From Escherichia coli (lineage in GTDB: Bacteria; Pseudomonadota; Gammaproteobacteria; Enterobacterales; Enterobacteriaceae): a DNA stretch of 64,000 nt. Positions 7,000 to 20,821 of the stretch are shown piece by piece. The stretch's first letter is position 1; the number at the start of each line of letters is the position of its first letter. Made by a program: the position numbers and the translations under genes. A model generated the notes under the pieces. The model saw only the letters and a list, made by a program, of their open reading frames with translations. It was not told the DNA's origin and made no database searches. Where the stretch lies: the NCBI RefSeq assembly GCF_030384885.1, contig NZ_CP128613.1; one strand, given 5' to 3'.

Positions 7000-7041
7000 C
7001 AGATATAAAAGCAAAACGCCACGTAAACACGTGGCGTTTTT
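7000..7041 (-). terminator. intrinsic terminator downstream of rho
   Basis: 10-bp inverted repeat AACGCCACGT/ACGTGGCGTT (7015-7038) followed on the minus strand by a U-rich tract, 15 bp after the rho stop. Confidence 0.55.
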
Positions 7042-14272: not shown

Positions 14273-14722
14273 GTGGCGATTAATTTCAGCCCCAAGGTTG
14301 GTGAAATACTGGAATGCAACTTTGGTAACTATCCCGTTAGCCAGAATGGACAGTTCAGCACGACGTATTACGATGGCCGCATTCCACCTGAGATGATAAA
14401 AAATAGGTTGGTTGTCGTGCTCAACGGAAAAATTAATGGCAACGCATGTATCGTCGTTCCATTATCAACCACTCGCGACCATGACAAGTTAAATCGTGGA
14501 ATGCATGTTGAAATAGCCAGTAATGTTATCAATGACCTGCAATTCTTTGATCCGCAGATACGTTGGGCTAAAGCCGACCTGGTACAACAAGTCAGTCGAA
14601 ACCGATTAAACAGAGCAAGGACTTATCGGGGGTATCTTAATCAATGTTTGCCACATGAGTTGGTTGCAGACATACAGAGGGCAGTCATCAAGTCAATCAA
14701 TGCCATATCGCTCATAAATTGA
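14273..14722 (+). CDS. yifN: MazF/PemK-like toxin-fold protein YifN
   Basis: ORF 14231..14722; AAGGAGA RBS 9 nt before GTG at 14273; PemK-like segments (KVGEIL..., RLVVVL, CIVVPLSTT); position between rep and ppiC. Confidence 0.65.
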   Translation: MAINFSPKVGEILECNFGNYPVSQNGQFSTTYYDGRIPPEMIKNRLVVVLNGKINGNACIVVPLSTTRDHDKLNRGMHVEIASNVINDLQFFDPQIRWAKADLVQQVSRNRLNRARTYRGYLNQCLPHELVADIQRAVIKSINAISLIN

Positions 14723-15155: not shown

Positions 15156-15159
15156 CAGC

Positions 15160-15184
15160 AAGGCCTTCTCCGGGAGAAGGCCTT
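15160..15184. terminator. bidirectional hairpin between convergent ppiC and ilvC
   Basis: AAGGCCTTCTC-CGG-GAGAAGGCCTT perfect 11-bp inverted repeat lying between two stop codons. Confidence 0.6.
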
Positions 15185-15200
15185 GAACTCTGAATCGCAC

Positions 15201-16825: not shown

Positions 16826-17716
16826 TTGGATTTACGCGATCTGAAAACCTTCCTGCATCTGGCGGAAAGCCGCCATTTTGGCCGCAGCGCGCGGGCGATG
16901 CACGTTAGTCCATCCACGCTTTCCCGACAGATTCAGCGCCTGGAAGAAGATCTCGGTCAGCAGCTGTTTGTGCGCGATAACCGTACGGTGACGCTGACCG
17001 AAGCGGGCGAAGAACTGCGCGTTTTCGCCCAGCAAACACTGTTGCAGTATCAGCAATTGCGCCACACCATCGACCAGCAAGGACCGTCGCTCTCTGGCGA
17101 ATTACATATCTTCTGCTCGGTGACCGCTGCCTACAGCCATCTGCCGCCGATTCTTGACAGATTCCGCGCGGAACACCCGTCAGTGGAGATCAAACTCACT
17201 ACCGGTGATGCGGCGGATGCGATGGAAAAAGTGGTGACGGGGGAAGCGGATCTGGCGATTGCCGGGAAGCCGGAGACGCTGCCCGGTGCAGTGGCGTTTT
17301 CGATGCTGGAGAATCTGGCAGTGGTGCTGATCGCGCCTGCCCTACCGTGCCCGGTGCGTAATCAGGTTTCGGTAGAGAAGCCGGACTGGTCTACAGTGCC
17401 GTTTATCATGGCAGATCAGGGGCCGGTGCGCCGCCGCATTGAGCTGTGGTTCCGACGCAATAAAATCAGTAACCCGATGATTTACGCCACGGTTGGCGGA
17501 CATGAAGCGATGGTTTCGATGGTGGCGCTCGGCTGCGGCGTGGCATTGTTGCCGGAAGTGGTGCTGGAAAACAGCCCGGAACCGGTGCGTAACCGCGTGA
17601 TGATTCTGGAGCGTAGCGATGAGAAAACGCCGTTTGAGCTGGGCGTTTGTGCACAAAAAAAGCGGCTGCATGAGCCGCTGATTGAGGCTTTCTGGAAGAT
17701 TTTACCGAATTACTAA
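16826..17716 (+). CDS. ilvY: LysR-family transcriptional activator of ilvC
   Basis: Protein reads (M)[44 protein letters not shown]...; the codon encoding the first residue is TTG at 16826, no in-frame ATG nearby. Confidence 0.85.
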
Positions 17717-17726
17717 GGACAATTTC

Positions 17727-18116
17727 ATGACAACAAGAAAGTGGATATTATTATTGGTTTTAGCGGTAAGTTGCATTGCGCAAGCCAAACCGAAAGGTAT
17801 CACCGTTCAGGATGTGAAGCATCTGGCGTTGAAAGAGTGTTTAACGTCCCATTATCGTGAGCGTACGCCCGCTGATGCCTTTTCGGCTCCTGCTCATGAC
17901 GTTTCATTTCTGCTTGAAAGGTATGCTTTAGATAATGCTGGAAAGTGGAATGCTTTTCAGAAATTTGTCGCCAAAGAGACGAAGGGATTTGGCACCCTCA
18001 CCCTTGCGCTACATCCCGATAGCGCAAAGGATGCGAATAACATAATGGAGCGGTGTATGAGCTTTTATGAGTCGGAAAAGCTTGATAATTACATTCGTAA
18101 TAAGATTATGAAGTAA
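17727..18116 (+). CDS. hypothetical small exported protein (predicted signal peptide; possible lipobox)
   Basis: ATG with AAGGA RBS 8 nt upstream, starting 10 nt after the ilvY stop; N-terminus MTTRKWILLLVLAVSCIAQA|KPKG has n/h/c signal regions and an AxA site; two Cys in the mature part. No family recognised. Confidence 0.6.
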   Translation: MTTRKWILLLVLAVSCIAQAKPKGITVQDVKHLALKECLTSHYRERTPADAFSAPAHDVSFLLERYALDNAGKWNAFQKFVAKETKGFGTLTLALHPDSAKDANNIMERCMSFYESEKLDNYIRNKIMK

Positions 18117-18134
18117 ATCGTGAGAAATAAATAC

Positions 18135-18725
18135 ATGGCAAAAAATAATAATCACTTACCATCGAATATCGATAATTTCTCTATCCATAAGAAATACACC
18201 CACATATTTGACATTGCCTTTGTAAAGTTTGGTGCCAGACTGGCAGATGTACAAATGACACTATTCAAAAACACATCGCCCTCAGTTTATACACTTCAAT
18301 GTATAAGTGACGATGAATTGTTCTTTATTGATATTTACGAAGATGAGCAAGCCGTGTTAGCAGAACACCGAATTATTGATAATGAAGAAAATATTGTTTT
18401 CATCCCACATTGTTTTACAAAAATGTTAATGACTGCTTGTCAGGAAGCTAAAAAACAACCTGCTTTATACACGGAAGATATACTAATGAGCAAAAGAGTG
18501 CGTCGCCAGCGACTATCACAGACTATGCCTGCTCTGGTGAGCCTACGTGACATCCATATCGATTTTAGGACCAGTTACGGACATGGCGAAGCCTCATACG
18601 AGATCAATTTTAGTCCATACGCTATCGAAAATGGTGACTGGATGAACGCTAAAAGGTGCAGAAATTTTTCTGTTATGTTCGATGAGAATATGAATTTTAT
18701 AGAAGTTCAATGGTATAGGGATTAA
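18135..18725 (+). CDS. hypothetical cytoplasmic protein (196 aa), AT-rich gene
   Basis: ORF 18120..18725; likely start is the ATG at 18135 (MAKNNNHLPSN...); no TM or signal peptide; visibly AT-rich codon usage; no recognisable motif. Confidence 0.55.
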   Translation: MAKNNNHLPSNIDNFSIHKKYTHIFDIAFVKFGARLADVQMTLFKNTSPSVYTLQCISDDELFFIDIYEDEQAVLAEHRIIDNEENIVFIPHCFTKMLMTACQEAKKQPALYTEDILMSKRVRRQRLSQTMPALVSLRDIHIDFRTSYGHGEASYEINFSPYAIENGDWMNAKRCRNFSVMFDENMNFIEVQWYRD

Positions 18726-18731
18726 AAAAAC

Positions 18732-19205
18732 TTAAACCGAAACACGATTTGGAAACATAACAACCTCCACTTCAATTTCTGTTAAATTACTTAAATTGAT
18801 TATCAGTTTTAACTCTGAATGTTCGTTAATTGCCATCAAAATATCATTGCTAACAGAAATAAAGCTTATTGGGTTAGTCTGGGTAAAAAAGAATCCCCAG
18901 ACAAAATTATTATCAGCATCTATATATACCAACGATCCCTCGTTTCCCATCGTTCCATCACCGCCGTAGATTTTCCCGCCTTTATACTCAGTAAATGTCC
19001 AGTAGTCGACGGGAACCCAGCAATCAGAATCGTATTTTTCAATACTGGAGAAGGATGTATCACACAAAGGAGTACACCAGGCTTTCTTCTCTTTCGTGTA
19101 ATTATCGAAAGACTCCCGCCAGTTTAAAAGGGTGACAGTCCCATTCGCAAAGGTCAGGCTATCGATTCCAGGTAACTCTTTTTTCTCTTCCCAGCGTTTA
19201 AACAT
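18732..19205 (-). CDS. hypothetical cytoplasmic protein (157 aa)
   Basis: ATG at 19205 with AAGGA RBS 9 nt upstream; stop lies 6 bp from the stop of the preceding plus-strand ORF (tail-to-tail); AT-rich; no recognisable motif. Confidence 0.55.
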   Translation of the reverse strand: MFKRWEEKKELPGIDSLTFANGTVTLLNWRESFDNYTKEKKAWCTPLCDTSFSSIEKYDSDCWVPVDYWTFTEYKGGKIYGGDGTMGNEGSLVYIDADNNFVWGFFFTQTNPISFISVSNDILMAINEHSELKLIINLSNLTEIEVEVVMFPNRVSV

Positions 19206-19240
19206 GACAATAAATCCTTTTATTTCATCACGTAGTATAA

Positions 19241-19268
19241 CTCCCTAATGAAGACGTTCATTAGGGAG
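19241..19268 (-). terminator. perfect 12-bp inverted repeat just downstream of the ilvA stop
   Basis: CTCCCTAATGAA-GACG-TTCATTAGGGAG; weak U-tract, so possibly a leaky terminator or processing site. Confidence 0.45.
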
Positions 19269-19276
19269 CCATGTGT

Positions 19277-20821
19277 TTAACCCGCCAAAAAGAACCTGAA
19301 CGCCGGGTTATGGGTTTCGTCGTGGCAATCGTAGCCCAGCTCATTTAGCCGGGTTTCGAAATCCGGTTCGTGGTCGCCAAGCTCGAACGCCGCCAGTACG
19401 CGCCCGTAGTCGGTACCGTGGCTGCGATAATGGAAAAGCGAAATGTTCCAGTGGGTACCTAGCGTGTTGAGGAAGCGCAGCAGCGCGCCCGGCGATTCCG
19501 GGAACTCGAAGCTGTAGAGGCGTTCCTGCAACGGATGCGATGGACGCCCACCAACCATATAGCGCACGTGTAGCTTCGCCATTTCGTCGTCGGAGAGATC
19601 AACCACGCTGTAGCCGCCATCGTTGAGCATCTGCAAAATTTCTTTACGCTCTTCGAGCCCTCGACTTAAGCGCACGCCGACAAAAATGCAGGCGTTTTTG
19701 GCATCGGCAAAGCGGTAGTTGAACTCGGTGACCGAGCGCCCGCCAAGCAGTTGGCAGAACTTCAGGAAGCTGCCCTTCTCTTCCGGGATAGTCACCGCCA
19801 GCAACGCTTCACGCTGTTCACCCAGTTCGCAGCGTTCCGAGACGTAGCGCAGGCCGTGGAAATTGACATTCGCCCCCGAAAGCACATGCGCCAGTCGTTC
19901 GCCGCGAATATTGTTCTGGGCGATGTATTTTTTCATTCCCGCCAGCGCCAGCGCGCCGGAAGGTTCCGCCACCGCGCGCACATCTTCGAATAAATCCTTC
20001 ATCGCCGCACAGATCGCATCACTATCGACGGTGATGATGTCGTCGAGATACTCCTGGCATAAACGGAATGTTTCGTCGCCAATGCGTTTTACCGCTACGC
20101 CTTCAGCAAATAGCCCCACGCGCGGCAGATCAACCGGATGACCCGCATCCAGCGCCGCTTTCAGGCAGGCGGAGTCTTCCGCTTCAACGGCAATCACTTT
20201 GATTTGCGGCATCAGTTGTTTGATCAGCACCGCCACACCCGCCGCCAGACCGCCGCCGCCGACCGGCACAAACACGCGGTCAAGATGGGCATCCTGCTGG
20301 AGCAGTTCCAGCGCCAGCGTGCCTTGCCCGGCGATCACCATCGGGTGGTCGAACGGCGGCACCCAGGTGAAGCCCTGCTGCTGTGACAGTTCGATCGCTT
20401 TCGCTTTTGCTTCGTCAAAGTTCGCGCCATGAAGCAACACTTCGCCGCCAAAGCCGCGTACCGCATCAACTTTGATATCGGCGGTGGCGGTTGGCATGAC
20501 GATCAGCGCCTTCACGCCTAACCGCGCGGAGGAAAACGCGACGCCCTGCGCGTGATTACCCGCCGAGGCAGTGATCACGCCATGCGCTTTTTGTTCTTCC
20601 GTCAGGCCCGCCATCATGGCGTATGCACCGCGCAGCTTAAAGCTGTGTACCGGCTGGCGATCTTCGCGCTTCACCAGAATCACGTTATCAAGACGCGACG
20701 AGAGCTTTTCCATTTTTTGTAGCGGCGTGACCTGCGCCGCCTCGTAAACCGGTGCACGTAGCACCGCTCTTAAATATTCGGCGCCTTCCGGAGCACCAGA
20801 CAGGGGTTGTGAGTCTGCCAT
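19277..20821 (-). CDS. ilvA: threonine deaminase (biosynthetic threonine dehydratase)
   Basis: ORF 19277..20824; recognised start MADSQPLSGAPEGAEYLRAVLRAPVYEAAQVTPLQKMEKLS (514 aa). Confidence 0.95.
   Translation of the reverse strand: MADSQPLSGAPEGAEYLRAVLRAPVYEAAQVTPLQKMEKLSSRLDNVILVKREDRQPVHSFKLRGAYAMMAGLTEEQKAHGVITASAGNHAQGVAFSSARLGVKALIVMPTATADIKVDAVRGFGGEVLLHGANFDEAKAKAIELSQQQGFTWVPPFDHPMVIAGQGTLALELLQQDAHLDRVFVPVGGGGLAAGVAVLIKQLMPQIKVIAVEAEDSACLKAALDAGHPVDLPRVGLFAEGVAVKRIGDETFRLCQEYLDDIITVDSDAICAAMKDLFEDVRAVAEPSGALALAGMKKYIAQNNIRGERLAHVLSGANVNFHGLRYVSERCELGEQREALLAVTIPEEKGSFLKFCQLLGGRSVTEFNYRFADAKNACIFVGVRLSRGLEERKEILQMLNDGGYSVVDLSDDEMAKLHVRYMVGGRPSHPLQERLYSFEFPESPGALLRFLNTLGTHWNISLFHYRSHGTDYGRVLAAFELGDHEPDFETRLNELGYDCHDETHNPAFRFFLAG

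What the first reader, a model, noticed from the sequence alone, without database searches (positions are those of the whole stretch)
19241..19268. Perfect 12-bp inverted repeat at the ilvA-proximal edge of the islet
CTCCCTAATGAA-GACG-TTCATTAGGGAG lies 9 bp after the ilvA stop and about 35 bp before the start of the minus-strand islet gene. It has only a weak U-tract, so it may be a leaky ilvGMEDA terminator that lets some read-through into the islet gene, an RNA-processing or stability element, or a structural remnant marking the insertion boundary.
Basis: seen in the sequence. Interest (0 to 1): 0.3.

Follow-up and report, generated by a model that had tools for sequence, protein, structure and literature searches.

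The report
Conserved RNA hairpin after ilvA
A real, conserved 28-base hairpin sits just after the ilvA gene at the edge of a small accessory-gene island shared with Escherichia albertii; it most likely forms in the ilv operon's mRNA as a weak stop signal or stabiliser, which is an ordinary kind of element.

Summary
The perfect 12-bp inverted repeat with a 4-nt loop is at 19241-19268 and is not chance (0.02 such hairpins expected per window, 3 found).

The ilv operon and the adjacent islet gene P3 both lie on the minus strand. The hairpin is 8 nt after the ilvA stop and 35 nt before the P3 start.

It is not the native ilvA terminator:
- About 43% of complete E. coli genomes have ilvA and ilvY overlapping by 4 bp.
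- About 53% carry a 51-bp REP-like spacer.
- Only 2 of 5,426 carry the islet and the hairpin.

A canonical terminator for ilvA-sense transcripts lies inside the ilvY 3' end (17679..17661). The islet has moved it 1.6 kb away from ilvA.

The hairpin and P3 are native to E. albertii. Across six haplotypes the hairpin varies at 1 of 28 positions, against 24% of third-codon positions. The two changes in and beside the stem keep pairing only on the ilvA-sense RNA, where the stem extends to 16 bp.

The U-tract is poor, so termination is borderline at best. Best reading: a sense-strand RNA stem-loop acting as a leaky terminator and 3'-end stabiliser, which lets P3 ride on ilvGMEDA transcription.

It is not a boundary scar, REP, attC site or known Rfam family. 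Interest is low.

The parts
19241..19268 (-). Core hairpin: perfect 12-bp stem with a 4-nt loop. Sense RNA is CUCCCUAAUGAA-CGUC-UUCAUUAGGGAG.
   Evidence: It varies at 1 of 28 columns across 8 sequences (6 haplotypes).
19237..19272 (-). Extended 16-bp stem-loop. AUGG (19272..19269) pairs with UUAU (19240..19237) as A-U, U-A, G.U and G.U. This extension forms only on the ilvA-sense RNA.
   Evidence: sense -21.9 kcal/mol with 16 bp, antisense -18.5 kcal/mol with 12 bp; 100% of cells paired on sense, 87.5% on antisense.
19269..19276 (-). 8-nt spacer between the ilvA stop codon and the core stem; also the outermost islet-specific bases.
   Evidence: 3 of 8 columns vary.
19277..20821 (-). ilvA (threonine ammonia-lyase), last gene of ilvGMEDA.
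   Evidence: RefSeq annotation of the identical record NZ_CP027579.1.
19206..19240 (-). 35-nt leader between the hairpin and the P3 ATG. It holds a conserved TATACT (19239..19234, a possible -10 box) and the Shine-Dalgarno sequence AAGGA (19219..19215).
   Evidence: for conservation. No promoter reaches the scan threshold.
18732..19205 (-). P3: 157-aa hypothetical protein, co-directional with ilvA. All-beta fold resembling a beta-propeller fragment.
18135..18725 (+). P2: 196-aa hypothetical protein, convergent with P3 with 6 nt between the stop codons. No family match.
17727..18116 (+). P1: 129-aa protein with an N-terminal hydrophobic segment that looks like a signal peptide (read from the sequence; not run through a predictor). 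Weak, sub-threshold match to Tai4, the T6SS amidase immunity family. Conserved next to ilvY in E. albertii (70% aa identity).
17710..19276 (.). The islet: 1,567 bp of AT-rich DNA between the ilvY and ilvA stop codons. It replaces 3 bp of the no-spacer allele.
17654..17679 (-). Canonical intrinsic terminator for ilvA-sense transcripts, inside the ilvY 3' coding region: AGCGGCU-CAUGC-AGCCGCU followed by six U (tail UUUUUUGUGC; terminator score T=5.24). Probably the native ilvGMEDA terminator, now 1.6 kb from ilvA.
   Evidence: d about +32. Present in K-12-type sequence. The title of Sameshima et al. 1989, seen, is consistent with this.

Best explanation
The palindrome acts as an RNA stem-loop on the ilvA-sense (minus-strand) transcript. 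It has 12 perfect pairs and extends to 16. It starts 8 nt after the ilvA stop codon (4 nt for the extended stem) and ends 35 nt before the start of the co-directional accessory gene P3.

It belongs to a small island between ilvA and ilvY. That island is native to Escherichia albertii and rare in E. coli. The island moved the strong native ilvGMEDA terminator, which lies inside the ilvY 3' end, 1.6 kb downstream.

Proposed mechanism:
1. RNA polymerase leaving ilvA transcribes the hairpin.
2. The tail (UUAUACUA) is U-poor, so only a minority of complexes terminate there.
3. The remainder continue into P3, so P3 is expressed as a sixth cistron under ilv-operon control.
4. The stable stem also blocks 3'->5' exonucleases. 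This gives the ilvGMEDA mRNA a defined, protected 3' end after downstream decay. A REP-like palindrome occupies the same position in K-12-type strains and would do the same job.

Shown here:
- The hairpin exists and is non-random.
- It is carried by the island.
- It is conserved.
- Its pairing is asymmetric between the strands.
- Its terminator score is borderline.
- A strong terminator sits beyond the island.

Inferred, not shown:
- Partial termination at the hairpin.
- Read-through into P3.
- Stabilisation of the mRNA 3' end.
For: Existence and non-randomness:
- The perfect stem is real and far from chance.

Absent where the islet is absent:
- Of 5,426 complete E. coli genomes, about 2,342 have the no-spacer allele, in which ilvA and ilvY overlap by TTAA. 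About 2,888 have a 51-bp REP-like spacer. Only 2 have the islet.
- There is no other copy of the hairpin in those genomes.

Always in one context:
- Every related occurrence found lies between ilvA and P3, in E. coli, E. albertii and metagenome contigs.

Conservation:
- 1 of 28 hairpin columns varies, against 10 of 44 for the rest of the spacer (Fisher p=0.04) and 75 of 308 third-codon positions (p=0.009).

Strand asymmetry:
- The sense RNA forms 16 bp at -21.9 kcal/mol; the antisense RNA forms 12 bp at -18.5.
- Only two substitutions occur in or beside the stem. On the sense strand they give G.U->A-U and U-A->U.G. On the antisense strand the second gives a C.A mismatch.

Terminator strength:
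- A d'Aubenton-Carafa-type score gives about +2 for the sense strand (borderline) and -23 for the antisense strand. The terminator inside ilvY scores about +32.

No independent promoter for P3:
- No sigma-70-like promoter reaches threshold between ilvA and P3, or in the ilvA 3' end.
- P3 is co-directional with ilvA, 71-72 nt downstream, and has its own Shine-Dalgarno sequence.

Precedent:
- Overlapping ilvA/ilvY transcription in K-12 is in the literature, by title only (Sameshima, Wek and Hatfield 1989, cited in PMC4161252).
- That paper also reports that most convergent E. coli operons terminate inefficiently.
Against: - No transcript data exist for these strains, so termination, read-through and stabilisation are all untested.
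- There is no truly compensatory (two-sided) change. The two one-sided changes are linked in one lineage, so they may be one or two events. The shuffle control in the count of structure pairs cannot discriminate with three distinct stem haplotypes.
- The conservation signal is modest (p=0.009 to 0.04) and would equally fit a DNA-level protein-binding palindrome.
- The consensus scan flags the hairpin as terminator-like only on the + strand (tail CCATGTGTTT), not on the ilvA-sense strand.
- When the 16-bp extended stem forms, it uses up the first four tail bases (UUAU). Only ACUACGUG then follows the stem, and the score falls to about -27. This argues against termination and for a pure stability or processing role.
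- A conserved TATACT lies 2 nt after the stem and could be a P3 promoter -10 box.
- The scoring formula was recalled from memory and was used with modern energy parameters.
Confidence: 0.45

Rival explanations
1. DNA-level palindrome: an operator or other binding site for a dimeric protein that overlaps a weak P3 promoter. The candidate promoter is ATGAAC, a 16-nt spacer, then TATACT, with the -10 box 2 nt after the stem. Binding would control P3 independently of ilvGMEDA.
For: - A perfect 12-4-12 dyad is typical operator geometry.
- TATACT and the following leader are conserved in all six haplotypes.
- The conservation of the 28-mer fits a DNA site as well as an RNA stem.
Against: - The -35 candidate matches only 3 of 6 positions, and the pair falls below the scan threshold.
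- No DNA-binding domain was found in P1, P2 or P3, or in the E. albertii island proteins that were scanned (the 219/220-aa FMN_red-like protein, the 193-aa protein and the P1 homolog). The island's middle genes differ between lineages while the hairpin stays constant.
- The arm sequence occurs nowhere else in the window above chance or elsewhere in E. coli genomes, so no regulon is visible.
- The one arm substitution breaks the dyad symmetry but keeps RNA pairing.
Confidence: 0.15
2. Translation-termination modulator of ilvA. A stable stem beginning 4-8 nt after the stop codon would sit at the entrance of the terminating ribosome. It could slow release or trigger ribosome-rescue pathways and so lower IlvA output. 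From my own knowledge, this has been reported for REP elements lying within about 15 nt of stop codons (Liang, Rudd and Deutscher 2015); I could not retrieve that paper here.
For: - The distance from the stop codon is 8 nt for the core stem and 4 nt for the extended stem.
- The pairing is sense-strand specific.
- In K-12-type strains the same spot holds a REP-like palindrome.
Against: - There is no direct evidence.
- About 43% of complete E. coli genomes have no structure at all at this position, so ilvA does not need such control.
- The literature search did not retrieve the REP paper.
Confidence: 0.1
3. Structural scar or recombination site at the island boundary, such as a mobile-element end, attC-like site or Xer-type site, with no present function in gene expression.
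For: - It lies only 8 nt from the island/core junction.
- The island is AT-rich and variable in content.
Against: - There is no matching direct or inverted repeat at the ilvY-side boundary.
- No integrase, transposase or recombinase lies in the island in E. coli.
- The hairpin is single-copy. The 18 other metagenome matches to the core palindrome are unrelated AT-rich hairpins.
- The ilvA-hairpin-P3 segment aligns continuously with E. albertii at 92.5%, about the divergence of ilvA itself. The junction is therefore old, and the variable part is the island's middle, not this edge.
- The hairpin is more conserved than near-neutral sites.
- Read directly from the sequence, it does not fit attC (R'/R'' boxes, extrahelical bases) or dif (11-6-11) geometry.
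Confidence: 0.05
4. A neutral palindrome with no function, conserved only because the sampled lineages are closely related.
For: - Only six haplotypes, spanning about 8% divergence, were available.
- There are no two-sided compensatory changes.
- P3 itself is decaying in some E. albertii, through a frameshift in an A-run.
Against: - A perfect 12-bp stem is about 100 times rarer than observed under a composition-matched null.
- Variation is 1 of 28 columns against 24% at third-codon positions (p=0.009).
- Both changes in and beside the stem preserve sense-strand pairing.
Confidence: 0.2

Closest known systems
Rho-independent (intrinsic) transcription terminators
   Same: - A stable stem-loop (12-16 bp, 4-nt loop) lies immediately downstream of the last gene of an operon, on the transcribed strand.
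- It scores borderline-positive on a hairpin-plus-tail measure.
   Different: - The tail is U-poor: UUAUACUA has 4 U in 8, or 1-2 U once the stem extension forms.
- The stem is AT-rich (5 of 12 G-C pairs).
- It does not reach the scan's threshold on the sense strand.
- A much better terminator lies 1.6 kb further on, inside ilvY (d about +32).
REP/BIME palindromes acting as mRNA 3'-end stabilisers (for example the REP-like element in the K-12 ilvA-ilvY spacer)
   Same: - Same genomic position: directly after the ilvA stop codon, between convergent or adjacent genes.
- A stable palindrome without a proper U-tract.
- The plausible role is the same: a barrier to 3' exonucleases and a partial transcription block.
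   Different: - It is single-copy and not a dispersed family.
- Its sequence is unrelated to the K-12 element GCCTGATAAGCGAAGCGCTATCAGGC.
- It is a perfect rather than an imperfect palindrome.
- It has no conserved GTAG head.
Overlapping convergent transcription and termination of ilvA and ilvY in E. coli K-12 (Sameshima, Wek and Hatfield 1989, J Biol Chem 264:1224; title seen)
   Same: The locus and the problem are the same: ilvGMEDA transcripts end beyond ilvA, within the convergent ilvY region. The canonical hairpin with a U-run on the ilvA-sense strand inside ilvY is present both here and in K-12.
   Different: Here a 1.57-kb island separates ilvA from that terminator. An island-borne hairpin and a co-directional gene (P3) now come first. 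The paper could not be read, so its mapped 3' ends are not compared.
Intercistronic stem-loops that set differential expression within operons (for example malE-malF REP or pap-type processing and stability hairpins; from general knowledge)
   Same: A stable hairpin between an upstream, highly expressed cistron and a downstream cistron. The expected effect is more stable upstream mRNA and less downstream expression.
   Different: No processing or half-life data exist here. The downstream gene is a horizontally variable accessory gene, not an original operon member.

Membership tests
Intrinsic (Rho-independent) terminator | Stable stem-loop with a short loop just downstream of a gene on the transcribed strand | tested here: met
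   12-bp perfect stem with a 4-nt loop, -16.5 kcal/mol; the 16-bp form is -21.9 kcal/mol. It lies 8 nt after the ilvA stop codon.
Intrinsic (Rho-independent) terminator | U-rich tract immediately 3' of the stem (the scan requires at least 5 T in 8) | tested here: not met
   The sense tail TTATACTA has 4 T in 8, and the scan does not call the hairpin on the minus strand. The tail score is T=3.43 and d is about +2.3, which is borderline; the ilvY-internal terminator scores T=5.24 and d of about +32.
Intrinsic (Rho-independent) terminator | Transcript 3' ends mapped at the tail, or termination shown in vitro | not testable with these tools
   No transcriptome data are available for 2013C-4282 or E. 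albertii. The literature searches found nothing on this island.
REP / BIME element | Member of a dispersed multi-copy repeat family in the genome | tested here: not met
   Unique in the window with up to 3 mismatches. It occurs only at this locus, in 2 of 5,426 E. coli genomes. The other metagenome matches are unrelated.
REP / BIME element | Imperfect palindrome with a conserved GTAG-type head | tested here: not met
   The palindrome is perfect. GTAG lies 5 nt from the stem on the + strand in the window haplotype only; the other haplotypes have ATAG there.
Bidirectional terminator between convergent genes | Stem flanked by an A-tract on one side and a T-tract on the other | tested here: not met
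   The flanks are ATAA|stem|CCAT. Compare 7013-7040, AAAACGCCACG...CGTGGCGTTTT, in the same window.
Mobile-element end or site-specific recombination site (IS end, attC, dif-like) | Partner repeat at the other boundary and a recombinase or transposase nearby | tested here: not met
   No repeat of the arms occurs at the ilvY-side boundary. The three island proteins have no recombinase domains, and RefSeq annotates them as hypothetical proteins.
Operator for a transcription factor | Dyad overlapping a promoter, plus a cognate DNA-binding protein | tested here: inconclusive
   The dyad geometry fits, and a conserved TATACT follows the stem. However, no promoter reaches threshold, and no DNA-binding domain was found in the island proteins scanned. 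Binding cannot be tested here.
Described RNA families (Rfam 15) | Match to a curated covariance model | tested here: not met
   Only two chance-level hits (E=1 and E=6.5) were found elsewhere in 17400-19600, and none at the hairpin.

The most novel reading that the evidence does not exclude
The hairpin is not a terminator. It is instead a selected wiring element: a specific recognition or processing site, for an RNase or an RNA- or DNA-binding protein, that sets the ilvA:P3 expression ratio. Through it an accessory gene of unknown function (P3, a stand-alone beta-propeller-fragment protein) has been captured as a sixth cistron of ilvGMEDA. P3 would then be controlled by branched-chain amino-acid attenuation in E. 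albertii and in a few E. coli.
Probability: 0.15. Interest if true: 0.3.

Novelty: new member of a known kind. Interest (0 to 1): 0.15.

Why it matters
This matters little beyond the locus.
- It corrects the picture of the 3' end of a textbook operon. In E. coli the ilvA-ilvY junction has three forms: a 4-bp gene overlap, a REP-like spacer, or an accessory island. The strong ilvGMEDA terminator lies inside ilvY.
- In island carriers and in E. albertii, a conserved but U-poor hairpin and an extra co-directional gene come first.
- If read-through is real, an accessory gene is expressed under amino-acid attenuation control. That would be a small, testable example of an operon capturing a horizontally variable gene.

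Tried and rejected
- **Native ilvA terminator.** Rejected: the hairpin is absent from all islet-less E. coli.
- **Dispersed repeat or REP.** Rejected: it is single-copy. The metagenome scan with CCTAATGAANNNNTTCATTAGG gave 19 loci. One was identical to the window; the other 18 were unrelated AT-rich hairpins from marine and freshwater samples.
- **Plasmid origin of the islet.** No match in PLSDB, even in distant mode.
- **Known RNA family.** No Rfam match.
- **Boundary scar, attC or dif.** No partner repeat or recombinase was found, and the geometry does not fit.
- **LysR (IlvY)-type T-N11-A box.** The dyad has even length, so it cannot be T-N11-A, and no similar sequence occurs at ilvY-ilvC. 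This rests on reasoning from the sequence.
- **Second small hairpin around the P3 Shine-Dalgarno sequence and AUG, predicted.** It is not conserved among haplotypes, so it was dropped.
- **P3 as a polymorphic-toxin immunity gene.** Its distant homologs in Paenibacillus and Flavobacterium are solitary genes between housekeeping genes, with no toxin neighbour. There are no Pfam, NCBIfam, PADLOC or PHROG hits. This remains unsupported.
- **Literature.** Nothing was found on this island. The key 1989 ilvA/ilvY paper is not held, and the REP/stop-codon paper was not retrieved.

Full report
**1. The observation**

The sequence CTCCCTAATGAA-GACG-TTCATTAGGGAG lies at window 19241-19268. It is a perfect 12-bp inverted repeat with a 4-nt loop.

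Perfect stems of at least 12 bp with a 3-8 nt loop occur three times in the 64-kb window, at 7013, 15159 and 19241. Composition-matched simulations give 0.02 per window. The 28-mer is unique in the window even with 3 mismatches allowed.

The window is 100% identical to E. coli 2013C-4282 (NZ_CP027579.1). Its annotation places these genes:
- ilvA at 19277-20821 (minus strand)
- ilvY at 16826-17716 (plus strand)
- three hypothetical genes between them: P1 17727-18116 (+), P2 18135-18725 (+) and P3 18732-19205 (-)

It lies 35 nt before the ATG of P3, which is co-directional with ilvA. The islet has 32-43% G+C, against 55-60% in the flanks.

**2. It is not the native ilvA terminator**

In 5,426 complete E. 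coli genomes the ilvA-ilvY junction takes three forms.

| Form | Junction | Genomes |
|---|---|---|
| a | No spacer. The convergent stop codons share TTAA (…ccgaaccaTTAAcccgcc…). Includes the window's closest relatives, with 99-99.5% identical flanks. | about 2,342 |
| b | The K-12-type 51-bp spacer with a REP-like palindrome, GCCTGATAAGCGAAGCGCTATCAGGC. | about 2,888 |
| c | The islet. | 2 (2013C-4282 and 2017-02-2CC) |

The 71-nt ilvA-P3 spacer matches nowhere else in those genomes. The islet has no plasmid match. Islet-specific DNA is 17710-19276, which replaces the 'cca' of form (a).

That condition is not met.

**3. Where the native terminator is**

A canonical intrinsic terminator lies on the ilvA-sense strand inside the ilvY 3' coding region, at 17679..17661. 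It reads AGCGGCUCAUGCAGCCGCU followed by six U (tail UUUUUUGUGC). K-12-type sequence also has it.

I scored hairpins with a d'Aubenton-Carafa-type hairpin-plus-tail measure. The formula was recalled from memory and used ViennaRNA energies, so the values are only indicative.

| Element | Score d |
|---|---|
| Terminator inside ilvY, ilvA-sense strand | about +32 |
| Islet hairpin, sense strand, 12-bp stem (tail UUAUACUA) | about +2.3 |
| Islet hairpin, sense strand, 16-bp stem | about -27 |
| Islet hairpin, antisense strand | about -23 |

[quoted passage not shown] I saw that title in the reference list of PMC4161252. The paper itself is not held. PMC4161252 also reports that 276 of 370 convergent E. 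coli operons terminate inefficiently.

In islet carriers the strong terminator is 1.6 kb from ilvA. The islet hairpin and P3 come first.

**4. Origin and distribution**

P3 belongs to a 107-member protein cluster that is mostly E. albertii.

The E. albertii island reads ilvA, hairpin, P3, a 219-aa FMN-reductase-like protein, a 185-aa protein, DUF2461, a P1 homolog (70% identity) and ilvY.

The window aligns continuously with E. albertii from ilvA through the hairpin and P3 into the first 87 nt of the P2 3' end, at 92.5% identity. P1 plus ilvY align at 86%. The island's two edges are therefore old and shared, and its middle is variable. Some E. coli and metagenome variants add a PLD/DrmC-like gene.

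Every related copy of the hairpin lies between ilvA and P3. The metagenome scan for the core palindrome returned 18 other hairpins, all unrelated. There is no Rfam match.

**5. Evidence on mechanism**

Eight sequences give six spacer haplotypes.
- The hairpin varies at 1 of 28 columns.
- The rest of the spacer varies at 10 of 44 columns (Fisher p=0.04).
- Third-codon positions of ilvA and P3 vary at 75 of 308 (p=0.009).

On the ilvA-sense RNA the stem extends by A-U, U-A, G.U and G.U to 16 bp, at -21.9 kcal/mol. The antisense RNA forms only the 12-bp core, at -18.5 kcal/mol.

The only two substitutions in or next to the stem are linked in one lineage. On the sense strand they give G.U->A-U and U-A->U.G, so 100% of cells remain paired. 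On the antisense strand the second gives a C.A mismatch, and 87.5% of cells are paired.

This favours an RNA-level role on the ilvA/P3 transcript, but only weakly. There are no two-sided compensatory changes, and there may have been only one or two events.

No sigma-70-like promoter reaches threshold between the ilvA 3' end and P3. A conserved TATACT does lie 2 nt after the stem, with a poor -35 box (ATGAAC, 16-nt spacer). P3 has a Shine-Dalgarno sequence, AAGGA, 9 nt before its AUG. No terminator separates P3 from the convergent P2.

**6. Best explanation (confidence about 0.45)**

The palindrome is an island-borne, sense-strand RNA stem-loop in the ilvA-P3 intercistronic spacer. It most likely acts as a leaky terminator and as a barrier to 3' exonucleases for ilvGMEDA mRNA. 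The REP-like palindrome in K-12-type strains plausibly plays the same role. The remaining transcription continues into P3, which thereby behaves as a sixth cistron.

Rivals:

| Rival | Confidence |
|---|---|
| Operator palindrome over a weak P3 promoter | 0.15 |
| REP-like modulator of ilvA translation termination | 0.10 |
| Boundary or recombination scar | 0.05 |
| No function | 0.20 |

The scar reading is disfavoured for four reasons. No partner repeat or recombinase was found. The junction is old and shared with E. albertii. The variable part of the island is its middle, not this edge. And the hairpin is more conserved than near-neutral sites.

**7. Comparison with known elements, and verdict**

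The hairpin works like a weak intrinsic terminator or a REP-type intercistronic stabiliser. It fails the U-tract criterion for a terminator. It also fails the multi-copy criterion for REP. It is an undescribed but ordinary element, so I class it as a new member of a known kind. Interest is low (0.15).

The more useful by-products are the three-form ilvA-ilvY junction, the displaced terminator inside ilvY, and the E. albertii origin of the island.

Noticed in passing
window 17654-17679 (minus strand), inside the ilvY 3' coding region: A canonical intrinsic terminator for ilvA-sense transcripts: AGCGGCT-CATGC-AGCCGCT followed by a T-run, with d of about +32. It is also present in K-12-type sequence. 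It is probably the true ilvGMEDA terminator, and it fits the 1989 report (title only) of overlapping ilvA/ilvY transcription.
   Followed up: partly
ilvA-ilvY junction: window 17705-19279; L002 505-520; L004 505-575: The junction takes three forms in E. coli. About 2,342 of 5,426 complete genomes have ilvA and ilvY overlapping by 4 bp (TTAA), about 2,888 have a 51-bp REP-like spacer, and 2 have the islet. About 190 genomes fit none of these at 80% coverage or better and were not examined.
   Followed up: partly
window 17500-17716 and 19277-19500 (flanks of the islet): The ilvY and ilvA ends flanking the islet are only 92-95% identical to most E. coli. They are at least 99% identical to only 7 records, and about 92.5% identical to E. 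albertii. This suggests a divergent, possibly recombined, ilvA-ilvY haplotype.
   Followed up: no
[not shown]
   Followed up: partly
window 19179-19184 (T6 on the + strand, A6 in the P3 sense strand); L044-L046 about 1384-1390: In several E. albertii strains P3 is frameshifted by loss of one A in this A-run (A6 to A5). This produces the 111-aa truncated gene calls P0050, P0052 and P0055. The hairpin is intact in these strains.
   Followed up: partly
window 17727-18116 (P1): P1 has an N-terminal hydrophobic segment that looks like a signal peptide (read from the sequence; not run through a predictor). It has a sub-threshold but near full-length match to Pfam Tai4, the T6SS amidase immunity family (E=0.005, 17.9 bits against a cutoff of 27.1). 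It is conserved next to ilvY in E. albertii (70% identity). It may be an orphan immunity gene.
   Followed up: partly
L039 3235-4233; L027 1746-2744: Some islet variants carry an extra 332-aa PLD-family gene between P1 and ilvY (PLDc_2 E=1e-11; weak PADLOC DrmC and DpdK hits). The ilvA-ilvY gap therefore behaves as a small hotspot for variable genes.
   Followed up: partly
window 22704-22731 (ilvE-ilvD spacer): An 11-12 bp perfect hairpin, AAATGGGACGG...CCGTCCCATTT. Its T-tract lies on the + strand, antisense to the ilv operon (d of about +28 on +, -31 on the operon strand). It looks like a terminator against antisense transcription, or an intra-operon stability element.
   Followed up: no
window 7013-7040 and 15159-15185: These are the two other perfect 12-bp hairpins in the window. 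The one at 7013 has A4/T4 flanks, which is the bidirectional-terminator type. The one at 15159 lies just downstream of ilvC.
   Followed up: no
window 19272..19261 (minus strand): A 3-codon mini-ORF, AUG GCU CCC UAA (AUG ACU CCC UAA in one lineage), starts 4 nt after the ilvA stop codon and lies within the 5' arm of the hairpin. It is probably fortuitous, but a re-initiating ribosome there would melt the stem.
   Followed up: no
window about 14273-14722 (+): RefSeq annotates a type II toxin-antitoxin PemK/MazF-family toxin gene just upstream of ppiC in this strain. It was not examined.
   Followed up: no
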